Of a stretch of 16,212 bases of DNA, positions 3,639-6,600 are shown in pieces; position 1 is the stretch's first letter, and each line of letters opens with the position of its first letter. The position numbers are program-made. The DNA comes from a virus (Duplodnaviria > Heunggongvirae > Uroviricota > Caudoviricetes): IMG/VR virus record IMGVR_UViG_2529293223_000015, positions 1 through 16,212 of that record, one strand, 5' to 3'.

Positions 3639-6600
3639 TGACCACTTCAGTTGTCATGACAGGAAGATGGTTATGCGTAAGTGACGGGAGTTTTTCAATA
3701 GACGTGCGATTCATAGACATGTCCTTTCGAATATTTTGATTTACCCCTTTTGAGAGGGTGACCGGGCGCTCAAAACCGTCGAAAGTCGGCGGGCGTATTT
3801 CCATTGCTGGTATTGTATTAGCCGCACACCCGGTCATAAACCAAGAATTCTGGACACAAAAAAACCACATGGCTATCGGGTGTGGATACCGCTTTCGAGG
3901 TGTTTTGAGCACCGCGGGGAAATGTAAACTGCAAACCTGAAACTGTCAACACCGTCAGGTTCCAATCATCGGGTGGTGAGACGCACAGGGTTGGAACTAC
4001 CGGGAAACCGACCGGCGAGCTTTTCAGCTCCCCCATGCGCCCCACCATAATTCAGATGTGCGCGTGCATACGACAATAAAAAACACGCTCGCGGCGTGTG
4101 TCTGTCGCGGTCTCTATCCGGGGTTCCAATCCCGACGCCAGATTTTGCTGGCGCGTGAGGAATATAGCCCCGGACAATGTGTCTGGTCAAGCACCTACAT
4201 AATTCGTTCTACGTATCTGTCCATCTCCAGCCTGATATCAAGCATCATCAACATGCCATCAATAACCCCTTCCGCTTTCTGCAGGCGCTTGCCAATACAG
4301 GTATCCGAACACCCATGTTTCCGTGCCAGACTCATAAAAGTCATTCCACCTACGTAATAATCCACCAGCAAATCGTGCAAATCCTGATTTTTCTTGTTCA
4401 ACCGGGCCATACAGCCACAAATTATCATTGCATCATCATCAGAACACTGAGGGCGTGATTTCACTTTCGACGGAATTAACCCTTTAAAACCAGCAGCGAT
4501 CGACGCCCAGGATACATCTTCATGAGTGTTTGCAGCCCAAGCCCCCCACCGTTCCATAACCTGCTGAATATCACGCGCCATCGTTATCACCTGTGATTTC
4601 GTAAATCTTCACGCCCAGTCGCCCACCAGGAACGAGCTGACCGCGCACAATATTGATTTCATCAAACTGCTCGTCGTCTATGAGTAGTCCGGCATGCGTC
4701 AGCGCATCCAGTGGTGCTTTCAGGATATTGTCCAGGTCACGACGGCGCTTATCCGGTGGCTCTGCAATAATCTTTATCGCCAGCCTTCCGGACAGGTTTA
4801 ATTTCAGCCGCTGCTGGCGAACAATTAGCGTCACATCACGGCGATAACGCTCACCAACTTTTGATACAAAATATGTGCAGCCACGACGTCGCCAGTAAGT
4901 ATTCACCGTCGGCGGATAAGGTAAAATAAACTCATGGCGCATCAGCGCAGCACCTCCTGCACCATTTTTTCAAACTTTCCAACTTTGGTTTCCAGCTCTG
5001 CCACACAATCAACGAGCTCATCCACCGCTTTTTGTGCGCGATGTTTCGCCTGCATCAGTTCCCTGAGCGCTGGCACCATATCCCGACGAATGGCATCTTT
5101 TGTTACACCTGTTTTTTCCAGTTGTTCCGCCTGTCGCAACATTTCCTGCGCGTGTTTACGCAATTGTTCAGGGGTAAAAGTCATTGTCTGGTTGTTCAAA
5201 AGAAACGCTCCATCTTACTGCTGTCGGTACGTGTATTGCTGTATCTGCGCGGCTGGGGCTGCCGCATTGGGGTGGAAAGAACCTGTGCGCTTTCCTGGTC
5301 CACAGGCAGAAAATGTCCGTTATAAAAACGCCGGTAAATCGTCCCCAGAGAACCGTTACGTTGTTTCGTGATATTAATTTCTGCTATGCCTGTGGCCTGT
5401 GTATCCGGGTTGTACACTTCATCCTAAAGTGCGCAAAATCATTTGATACCGTTTTGAATTTTTTTTGATACCACCCAAAACGGCACAACGAAAAATTATT
5501 TGATACTAATCGGGAGTGCTTTTAGGGTATGGCTGAACCCTGAATAGCTTAGTATTTAGTCGCTTTCTTGCGCGCTTGTTCAGGAACCTGATGTAACGAT
5601 ATTGATTAAATTTGTGTACCACGGCCCGCTCCTTATTCGCTCGTAAATATTCGCCGCGCTTCCCTCCACGATTAATCGCATTCATCGTTATCTCGTGATA
5701 CCACTCACCGTCCAGTTCGTAGAATGTGCTTTCATGGCTGCCAATAAAATCAAAATTTGACGCCTGATACACAACACCTGCACGCCCGCAACGTTCGTCT
5801 GCAAAGGACTGAACCCACTCCACTGACGGATACAGTAACCTGATGGTTTTCAGCGCGTAGCTGATGGCCCGTGATTCAGAGTTGCGGGGCATGTCGTCGT
5901 GTAGCCACATGCGGTTCAGTTCCATATAGCCCCGGTTATCCGTTTCAAGCACAACGCGACGCCCTGAGTTGGGGTTAAGGGCATATCCCCACTGAAGAAC
6001 ACCAACCAGATCACGTCCACTGAATACGCCCAGATGCAACCAGGAGTTATTCACAAAACGGCGGGAATAATGCTTTGTCTGAATGATTGTGCGGGCCAGC
6101 CAGCAGGATATGGTTTCAACGCGCAGCTCCCTTGAACCATAGCCGACAATCCGGCCTTCATACTCAATAACGCAGGGTTTTGTCAGAATGCGTGATTTCT
6201 TCTCTTTTCCCACAATACAGCTCCGTGGGATGCTCCCGGGCACTCGATATGACAATGTAACGTTTACAGCGAGGACATTTGATTTCTATATGCTTAAAAC
6301 CTCCTTTAAACAGCAATTTATTGCAATTTTTACAACGAACAGAGTCCATAATTTCCCCCAGTGTAATAACAGGATATAGCTGCCCGGAGGGCTGGGGGTA
6401 TTTAATCACACTTGATGCAAACCGACGATCGATATGATGCTATCGATCGTCATAAACTATACAAACTGATTATTTAATCGCCTGGTCTGAACGCTCTCAC
6501 CTCGTCCAGTGTGGGCAACAGAGAAAGTTGTTCTTTCATCTCCCGCTGACAGCGATAAATCTCATCGTTGCGCTCAACAATGGCCTGTATCATCGCTGTG

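What the first reader, a model, noticed from the sequence alone, without database searches (positions are those of the whole stretch)
5196..5510. Module junction: Mu-like tail/mom block abuts a truncated DnaB-like helicase gene of a lambdoid late region
Seen in sequence: helicase homology on the minus strand starts abruptly at DEVY (5423), preceded by an in-frame TAG. About 80 bp upstream on the same strand is the mom stop (5506). There is no integrase, repressor or replication-initiator gene between the tail-fibre/mom module and rusA-Q. The right module also looks more GC-rich by eye. Inference: either a Mu-like transposable prophage inserted into the helicase gene (Mu has mom about 100 bp from its right end), or a deletion fusing the tail end of one lambdoid genome to the nin region of another. 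The inward end sequence TAAAGTGCGCAAAATC is loosely similar to the Mu terminus I recall (TGAAGCGGCGCACGAAAA).
Basis: partly seen in the sequence, partly recalled or inferred. Interest (0 to 1): 0.75.

Follow-up and report, generated by a model that had tools for sequence, protein, structure and literature searches.

The report
Mu-like prophage end inside helicase gene
This is the right-hand end of a Mu-like transposable prophage that inserted into the helicase gene of a decayed lambda-like prophage in Shigella boydii; that is ordinary, but close relatives show unusual TA ends and a 4-bp rather than 5-bp target duplication.

Summary
Megablast splits the region exactly at 5424|5425. To the left is the last 75 codons of a lambdoid replicative helicase gene, followed by orf85, rusA and Q. 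To the right are mom, com and the tail genes of a Mu-like prophage.

Position 5425 is the terminal base of the element. In 13 independent insertion sites of close relatives, the flanks diverge immediately outside the same terminus, TAAAG[C/T]GCGC. An almost identical helicase allele (L006) is uninterrupted at this point. Complete relatives carry a Mu-type transposase, a MuB-like ATPase, a ner-like protein and a repressor about 30 kb further on.

Corrections:
- The resemblance to the Mu terminus is weak.
- The GC step lies at about 10,250, not at the junction.
- This lineage has TA...TA ends and a 4-bp target duplication, not TG...CA and 5 bp.

The window is Shigella boydii 5216-82 contig AFGE01000047.1, which stops inside the prophage. 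The far junction, which should hold the 5' part of the helicase gene, could not be retrieved.

The junction itself is ordinary. The end chemistry is a modest curiosity.

The parts
5196..5424 (-). 3' remnant of a lambdoid prophage replicative (DnaB-like) helicase gene. It holds the last 75 of 466 codons plus one base of the preceding Arg codon, so it cannot encode a working helicase.
   Evidence: Megablast against E. coli genomes annotated 'replicative DNA helicase' ends at 5424. The stretch is 99.7% identical to the uninterrupted L006 up to 5424. Pfam finds no domain in the 75-residue remnant.
5421..5424 (.). Predicted copy of the 4-bp target duplication: ATCC on the + strand, GGAT in the helicase sense.
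   Evidence: Inferred from the 4-bp direct repeats flanking four complete relatives, two of them checked against empty sites. The second copy was not seen for this insertion.
5425..5509 (.). Right end (attR-like) of the Mu-like prophage. The terminus reads TAAAGTGCGCAAAATC..., with the terminal TA at 5425-5426.
   Evidence: Flanks of 13 independent insertions diverge immediately outside TAAAG. The stretch is 99% identical to the end of the sslE-inserted prophage of E. coli FDAARGOS_943.
5442..5449 (+). Core TTTGATAC of putative transposase-binding site R1, starting 18 nt from the terminus.
   Evidence: There are 4 copies in the window against 0.53 expected, and 3 of them lie in 5442-5506. The left end of relatives has the same core at 18, 122 and 164 nt.
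5464..5471 (+). Core of putative site R2, 22 bp after R1.
5499..5506 (+). Core of putative site R3. It touches the mom stop codon.
5506..6213 (-). mom (235 aa), the DNA-modification gene at the right end of Mu-type genomes.
   Evidence: Pfam Mom, E = 2e-75. It is 96.5% identical in protein to Mu Mom. Sources name it 'protein mom [Shigella boydii]'.
6164..6349 (-). com, the translational activator of mom.
   Evidence: Pfam Zn_ribbon_Com. It is 71% identical to Mu Com.
6474..16212 (-). Tail-fibre, baseplate and tape-measure genes of the Mu-like prophage, running off the window end. They are a DUF4376 protein, tail fibres, a fibre chaperone, and homologues of gp48, gp47, gp46, gp45, P and N, plus part of the tape-measure gene.
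   Evidence: Pfam families on the identical locus L005 and the near-identical L004. tblastn with Mu proteins gives 29-41% identity in Mu gene order.
4195..5199 (-). Remaining lambdoid nin/late-control genes downstream of the helicase remnant: orf85 (4942-5199), rusA (4571-4942) and antiterminator Q (4195-4581).
   Evidence: Pfam RusA and Phage_antitermQ. The annotation of L002 agrees.

Best explanation
Positions 5425-5509 are the right terminus of a roughly 34-kb Mu-like transposable prophage that integrated by DDE transposition into the replicative-helicase gene of a cryptic lambdoid prophage of Shigella boydii 5216-82.

Proposed mechanism:
1. The phage transposase is a 695-aa A protein with a Mu-type N-terminal DNA-binding domain, an rve-like DDE core and the Mu-transposase C-terminal domain. 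It is encoded about 30 kb beyond the window.
2. It binds three TTTGATAC-containing sites at each end. These lie at 18, 40 and 75 nt from the right terminus, and at 18, 122 and 164 nt from the left terminus. That layout matches the R1-R3 and L1-L3 sites of Mu.
3. With the MuB-like ATPase it captures target DNA.
4. It nicks after the 3'-terminal TA of each end and joins those ends to target phosphates staggered by 4 bp.
5. Here the target lay between the Arg391 and Asp392 codons of the helicase gene. Gap repair should have duplicated GGAT (ATCC on the + strand, 5421-5424).

The insertion leaves a 75-codon helicase stub, followed by orf85, rusA and Q.

What is shown:
- the exact boundary;
- its identity with the family terminus;
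- the repeated sites;
- the empty site in a sister allele;
- the transposition genes, varied target sites and 4-bp duplications in complete relatives.

What is inferred:
- that the same genes lie beyond the contig end in this strain;
- binding of the transposase to the repeats;
- the cleavage chemistry;
- that the 5' part of the helicase gene sits at the far junction.
For: - Break point. Megablast splits the region at exactly 5424|5425, and the three-way alignment agrees.
- Terminus. Thirteen distinct flanks abut ...GCGC[A/G]CTTTA. Eight distinct flanks abut the left terminus ...[C/A]ATA.
- Empty site. L006 reads ...GCTTTACAGGGATGAAGTG... without interruption and is 99.7% identical to the window up to 5424.
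- Complete relatives. They carry Mu-transpos_C/HTH_Tnp_Mu_1 A, Phage-MuB_C B, ner, a repressor, gam, mor, Mu-like head and tail genes, com and mom. The gene order is Mu's.
- Insertions in unrelated genes. sslE, mhpA, yihF and molR each carry a 4-bp direct repeat. Composite flanks with the 4 bp written once match intact mhpA at 236/236 and yihF at 235/236, without gaps.
- Control. Prophages with true MuA and TG...CA ends on the same structural backbone give 5-bp repeats by the same method.
- Binding-site cores. TTTGATAC is enriched, with 4 observed against 0.53 expected and 3 of them at the end. The first core sits 18 nt from the terminus at both ends.
- Cultured relative. Phage vB_YpM_5 has repressor, ner and A proteins 96-99% identical to the relatives', and its record shows the same two termini.
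Against: - The left junction of this particular insertion was not seen. The source contig AFGE01000047.1 ends about 10.8 kb into the prophage, and PSSR01000003.1 ends about 20.7 kb in.
- The transposase, B protein and repressor are therefore known only from relatives.
- Neither intactness of this copy nor a simple insertion has been shown. A later rearrangement at the far end is possible.
- The window terminus has a T at position 6 (5430) where every other copy has C.
- Binding of the transposase to the TTTGATAC sites and cleavage after TA are inferred, not tested.
Confidence: 0.9

Rival explanations
1. The junction arose by transposition, but the locus is no longer a simple insertion. Homologous recombination between several Mu-like copies, or an intramolecular replicative-transposition deletion or inversion, has separated the two helicase halves. 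The 5' part would then be elsewhere or lost.
For: - Both draft assemblies break inside the prophage at different points, as expected if the genome holds more than one related copy.
- FDAARGOS_943 carries several copies.
- Shigella genomes are rich in IS elements. IS911 and IS600 lie within 5 kb of the junction.
- No N-terminal helicase fusion protein of about 416 aa appeared among the cluster representatives.
Against: - In the four complete relatives examined, both flanks belong to one gene and carry a matching 4-bp repeat, even in the multi-copy strain.
- The missing fusion protein is weak evidence, because only cluster representatives are listed.
Confidence: 0.15
2. A deletion or illegitimate recombination fused the tail end of one prophage to the nin region of another, with no transposition at this site.
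For: No integrase, repressor or replication gene lies between the two modules.
Against: - The break falls on the exact terminal nucleotide shared by 13 independent insertions.
- The right module is Mu-syntenic, not lambdoid.
- The three end-specific repeats are all retained.
Confidence: 0.02
3. The junction is a chimeric assembly artefact of a draft genome.
For: The source is a 2011 draft contig that ends inside the prophage.
Against: The identical junction occurs in GCA_000211975.2, in GCA_002968245.1 and in a Logan contig of ERR200317, which is reported for 5 samples.
Confidence: 0.01

Closest known systems
Escherichia phage Mu (Muvirus mu), with D108 and Shigella phage SfMu
   Same: - Gene order from the early region through head and tail to com-mom at the right end.
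- Protein identity to Mu: Mom 96%, Kil and Gam 92%, Com 71%, B 41%, structural proteins 26-50%.
- com-mom DNA is about 88% identical.
- Mom ends about 80-120 bp from the terminus.
- Three binding-site repeats per end, with Mu-like spacing.
- Insertion at varied sites.
   Different: - The terminal 97 bp do not align with Mu at DNA level.
- The ends are TA...TA, not TG...CA, and the target repeat is 4 bp, not 5 bp.
- The A protein matches MuA only in the N-terminal 60 residues and weakly in the C-terminal domain.
- The repressor is CI/XRE-type.
- tblastn with Mu Gin finds nothing in the window or in the two relatives tested, L003 and L018.
Yersinia phage vB_YpM_5 (MT374853), a cultured Mu-like phage (PMC10434027)
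   Same: - Its repressor, ner and A proteins are 98%, 99% and 96% identical to those of the window-type prophage L003.
- Its record contains the same right terminus ...GCGCGCTTTA and the same left terminus TATGAAGAGGTAAATCATTTGATAC.
- Its right end, mom and com are 89.5% identical in DNA to window 5425-6339.
   Different: - Its B protein matches the L003 B at only 41%, the same level as Mu's B.
- At megablast level, only the first 915 bases of the window's prophage part match its record.
- It has a hin invertase next to com-mom.
- The paper does not describe ends or target duplications.
TA-TA transposable prophages of Leptospira, such as WETA1 (PMC8705779)
   Same: TA dinucleotides at both ends instead of TG-CA. 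That paper reported these as non-canonical.
   Different: Those elements have a B3/Tn552-family transposase and a 6-bp duplication, and they are otherwise unrelated. Here the duplication is 4 bp and the backbone is Mu-like and enterobacterial.
Sp18, the Mu-like prophage of E. coli O157:H7 Sakai (PMC2669165)
   Same: A Mu-like prophage resident in an E. coli or Shigella chromosome. It is packaged and not circularised.
   Different: It is not the same lineage at DNA level. Only 54 of 5,426 complete E. coli genomes match the baseplate block, and none of the 45 rows shown out of 55 matching records is labelled O157. Sp18's sequence was not examined directly.

Membership tests
Transposable (Mu-like) phages in the broad sense | A DDE transposase with Mu-type domains, with an adjacent MuB-like AAA+ target activator | tested here: inconclusive
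   Present in complete relatives: Mu-transpos_C, HTH_Tnp_Mu_1 and a weak rve match, plus Phage-MuB_C. In this strain the genes would lie beyond the contig end, so they were not seen.
Transposable (Mu-like) phages in the broad sense | Ends that carry several transposase-binding repeats in inverted orientation | tested here: met
   TTTGATAC cores lie at 18, 40 and 75 nt from the right terminus in the window, and at 18, 122 and 164 nt from the left terminus of relatives. Binding itself was not tested.
Transposable (Mu-like) phages in the broad sense | Insertion at many unrelated sites with a short target duplication | tested here: met
   There are 13 different right flanks and 8 different left flanks. 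Four complete relatives have 4-bp repeats, and two were confirmed against empty sites. The second repeat copy was not seen for the window's own insertion.
Transposable (Mu-like) phages in the broad sense | Mu-like genome order, with com-mom at the right end | tested here: met
   tblastn with 28 Mu proteins gives collinear hits in L003, L018 and the window. Pfam finds Mom and Com.
Mu sensu stricto (MuA-type transposition module) | 5'-TG...CA-3' termini | tested here: not met
   The termini are TA...TA. MuA-type prophages on the same backbone do show TG...CA.
Mu sensu stricto (MuA-type transposition module) | A 5-bp target duplication | tested here: not met
   Relatives of the window type have 4 bp. 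The MuA-type controls have 5 bp. This could not be tested on the window's own insertion.
Mu sensu stricto (MuA-type transposition module) | A MuA-like transposase and a Mu c-type repressor | tested here: not met
   The A protein of relatives matches MuA only at residues 1-61 (38% identity), and matches PDB 4FCY at E = 0.007. The repressor is HTH_3/Phage_CI_repr.
Lambdoid prophage DnaB-like replicative helicase | A full-length protein with DnaB N-terminal and C-terminal ATPase domains (PF00772, PF03796) | tested here: not met
   Only the last 75 of 466 residues remain. Pfam finds no domain in them. Full-length homologues carry both domains.
Leptospira-type TA-TA transposable prophages | TA-TA ends with a 6-bp duplication | tested here: not met
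   The TA-TA ends are met, but the duplication is 4 bp.

The most novel reading that the evidence does not exclude
The window-type element belongs to an enterobacterial lineage of Mu-like phages whose transposition module cuts after TA instead of CA and joins to targets staggered by 4 bp instead of 5 or 6 bp. The module consists of a 695-aa A protein, a CI-type repressor and ends with TTTGATAC or TTCAAGATA sites.

This module is exchangeable with the classical MuA module on one and the same structural backbone. The lineage includes the cultured Yersinia phage vB_YpM_5.

If so, it would answer the open question posed in PMC8705779, whether TA-TA transposable prophages exist outside Leptospira. 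It would also add a third stagger class to transposable phages. The sequence pattern itself is solid. What is uncertain is whether it is already described in literature I could not search, and whether the chemistry is as inferred.
Probability: 0.5. Interest if true: 0.45.

Novelty: new member of a known kind. Interest (0 to 1): 0.28.

Why it matters
For the genome, the result explains a puzzling module junction as a prophage-in-prophage insertion. It fixes the exact right boundary of a Mu-like prophage, which annotation pipelines usually miss. It also marks the helicase stub as a pseudogene fragment.

More generally, the relatives provide a natural comparison. One structural backbone carries either a MuA module (TG...CA ends, 5-bp repeat) or a divergent module (TA...TA ends, 4-bp repeat). 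This could be used to ask what sets the terminal dinucleotide preference and the target stagger in DDE transpososomes. A cultured phage, vB_YpM_5, carries the divergent module and is available for experiments.

Tried and rejected
Attempts to find the far (left) junction of this insertion:
1. A search with the N-terminal 391 residues of the helicase and cluster listings. These gave only full-length or contig-truncated helicases, and no fusion protein of about 416 aa.
2. A search with the repressor of relative L003 and a look-up of contigs encoding its closest representative. This returned three other insertion sites, not S. boydii.
4. A scan of viral contigs for the left-end sequence found nothing.
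5. A look-up of the 318-aa partial tape-measure ORF at the window's end: no gene with exactly that product is on record.

Other points:
- I first mis-parsed the junction. TAAAG also occurs 3 nt away in the intact helicase, which suggested a Mu-like ...GCGCA terminus plus a CTTTA duplication. The multi-site comparison rejected this.
- A 5-bp duplication was tested and rejected. It fits only 1 of the 4 paired junctions.
- Sp18 of O157 was considered as the nearest named prophage. The backbone is not detected in O157 genomes at megablast level.
- I did not use the genome contigs or metagenome-contig scans. Neither collection is likely to hold this Shigella strain, and the question did not justify the cost.

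Full report
**1. The observation**

The minus-strand ORF at 5196-5417 extends upstream to an Asp codon at 5423-5421 and is preceded by an in-frame TAG. A megablast of 4900-5900 against 5,426 complete E. coli genomes gives two non-overlapping sets of hits that meet exactly at 5424|5425.

- Positions 4900-5424 match 'hypothetical protein | replicative DNA helicase | RusA' of lambdoid prophages at up to 96%.
- Positions 5425-5900 match 'protein mom' at 99%.
- No genome holds both parts together.

The helicase of E. coli 90-3040 has 466 residues. The window keeps residues 392-466. The mom stop codon is at 5506-5508.

Gene calls with Pfam families for the identical locus L005 and the near-identical L004 give this order: N, P, gp45, gp46, gp47, gp48, tail fibres, DUF4376, Com, Mom, the 73-aa stub, orf85, RusA, Q. 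Nothing integrase-like or repressor-like lies between them.

**2. Source of the window**

The exact 73-aa product occurs in only a few records.
- With the junction: AFGE01000047.1 (GCA_000211975.2), PSSR01000003.1 (GCA_002968245.1) and a Logan contig of ERR200317.
- Without the junction: CWUL01000213.1, held here as L006.

The window is 100% identical to AFGE01000047.1 over the 15,417 bases held. The protein there is named for Shigella boydii 5216-82. That contig ends at about window position 16212. The other assembly ends about 20.7 kb into the prophage. The junction is therefore real, but the rest of the prophage lies on other contigs.

**3. Where the element ends**

A sister prophage with the same N protein sits at eight different host sites in ten loci. 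All copies read ...AATTTTGCGCGCTTTA, and the flanks diverge at the next base.

Copies with the window's own end sequence lie in sslE (L003), mhpA (L019) and yihF (L020). The record of the cultured Yersinia phage vB_YpM_5 shows the same end.

Together with the window, that makes 13 different flanks abutting one terminus. On the window's + strand the element therefore starts at 5425 with TAAAGTGCGC.

L006 carries the same helicase allele, 99.7% identical up to 5424. It continues without interruption...GCTTTACAGGGATGAAGTG. A break on the terminal nucleotide, together with an empty site, is the signature of transposition and not of deletion.

**4. What the element is**

Complete relatives are 33.5-34.7 kb long. 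They encode:
- a repressor and a ner-like HTH protein;
- a 695-aa transposase (HTH_Tnp_Mu_1, a weak rve match, Mu-transpos_C);
- a MuB-like ATPase;
- kil, gam and mor;
- lysis, head and tail genes;
- com and mom.

tblastn with Mu proteins gives collinear hits. Mom is 96% identical, Kil and Gam 92%, Com 71%, B 41% and the structural proteins 26-50%. The A protein matches only in its first 61 residues. Against PDB sequences, A matches the Mu enhancer-binding domain (E = 1.5e-5), retroviral integrase cores (E about 1e-4) and the MuA core structure 4FCY only weakly.

**5. Architecture of the ends**

TTTGATAC occurs four times in the window against 0.53 expected, and three of those lie at 5442, 5464 and 5499. 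These positions are 18, 40 and 75 nt from the terminus.

The left end of relatives has the same core at 18, 122 and 164 nt. This mirrors the Mu arrangement as I know it: R1-R3 packed together, and L1 set apart from L2 and L3.

The sister type has TTCAAGATA cores instead, and an A protein 85% identical, but it shares the terminal 15 nt.

**6. Termini and target duplication**

Left-end flanks diverge right after ...[C/A]ATA in eight sites. Both 3' ends are therefore TA.

In four complete prophages whose two flanks belong to one gene, the direct repeat is 4 bp:

| Locus | Target gene | Repeat |
|---|---|---|
| L003 | sslE | AACA |
| L018 | molR | TTTC |
| L019 | mhpA | TGCC |
| L020 | yihF | CGCA |

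A 5-bp reading fits only one of the four. Composite flanks with the 4 bp written once match intact mhpA at 236/236 and intact yihF at 235/236, without gaps.

As a control, three prophages have the same structural backbone but a 662-aa MuA-type transposase and Mu-type ends, and the two with both junctions in the fetched region give 5-bp repeats: AACGC and ACGGT.

The expected repeat for the window's insertion is therefore ATCC (5421-5424), not 5 bp.

**7. Comparison with the literature**

- Mu-like Yersinia phages, including vB_YpM_5, were published in 2023 without analysis of their ends.
- A 2021 study states that all Mu- and B3-like phages described until then had TG-CA ends. It reports TA-TA ends with 6-bp repeats in Leptospira, and asks whether TA-TA prophages exist elsewhere.
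- I found no paper in the held library on a 4-bp repeat in Mu-like phages. That library is incomplete.
- Sp18 of O157 Sakai is a known Mu-like prophage but apparently of a different lineage. None of the 45 shown of 55 matching records is labelled O157, and Sp18 itself was not compared.

**8. Verdict**

The finding is the attR-like end of a Mu-like transposable prophage inserted in the helicase gene of a degraded lambdoid prophage. IS911 and IS600 also interrupt that remnant.

The deletion alternative is rejected.

What remains unproved is the far junction in this strain. The junction itself is ordinary. The TA ends and 4-bp stagger of this transposition module are a modestly interesting side result that needs experimental confirmation.

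Noticed in passing
L003, L018, L019 and L020 (complete relatives); window 5421-5426: This prophage lineage has TA...TA termini and a 4-bp target duplication. MuA-type prophages on the same structural backbone (L028, L029) have TG...CA termini and a 5-bp duplication. A 2021 paper described TA-TA ends as new, in Leptospira and with a 6-bp duplication.
   Followed up: yes
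L003/L019, L018, L020, L027-L029 and L026: One structural backbone, 93-99% identical in DNA, carries at least four different transposition modules:
- TTTGATAC-site ends with a 695-aa A protein;
- TTCAAGATA-site ends with an A protein 85% identical to that one;
- a module whose A protein is 57% identical;
- a true MuA module.

Two of these types coexist in E. coli FDAARGOS_943. Conversely, Yersinia phage vB_YpM_5 carries the first module, while its B protein matches this backbone's only at Mu's level (41%).
   Followed up: partly
window 2401-3649: An IS911 copy with a 3-bp target duplication splits an ORF6N-domain (antirepressor-like) gene of the lambdoid remnant. The gene is intact in L006.
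   Followed up: yes
window 1-541: IS600 orfA lies at 1-300. It follows a 59-codon stub (362-541) that overlaps the holin gene by one base. In L004 the IS is followed directly by chromosomal genes with ETF and ETF-QO domains. The lambdoid prophage is therefore a short remnant. That the stub is a cut endolysin gene is my reading of L006, not a tested result.
   Followed up: partly
window 1437-1747: Four tRNA genes (Gly-TCC, Thr-TGT, Arg-TCT, Met-CAT) lie on the minus strand between the ORF6N gene and the holin gene.
   Followed up: no
window about 10,250: GC content steps from about 47-50% to about 58-64% inside the Mu-like prophage, between the tail-fibre/com/mom part and the baseplate genes. 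This suggests that the host-range end is a separately exchanged module.
   Followed up: no
window 5430: Position 6 of the terminus is T (TAAAGTGCGC) in the S. boydii copies. Every other copy examined has C. The effect on transposase recognition is unknown.
   Followed up: no
window 8991-10261: The S-like tail-fibre gene reads as 361 codons here (9176-10261), against a 422-aa call in the near-identical PSSR01000003.1 (L004). The two sequences differ by 3 mismatches and 3 gaps. This may be a frameshift or a sequencing error in the 2011 draft.
   Followed up: no
L029 (E. coli STEC719, NZ_CP041411.1): A MuA-type relative is inserted between the tail-assembly and tail-tube genes of a P2-like prophage, with a 5-bp repeat ACGGT. 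This is a second case of a Mu-like prophage sitting inside another prophage.
   Followed up: partly
L026 4654-4744 (MT374853.1): The 'circular' GenBank record of vB_YpM_5 joins the right and left termini through 91 nt of unrelated sequence. This is probably packaged host DNA kept by the assembler.
   Followed up: no
window 1826/1827 compared with L006 3718-3755: A 38-bp indel separates the window from the otherwise 99.9-100% identical L006, just downstream of the ORF6N gene.
   Followed up: no
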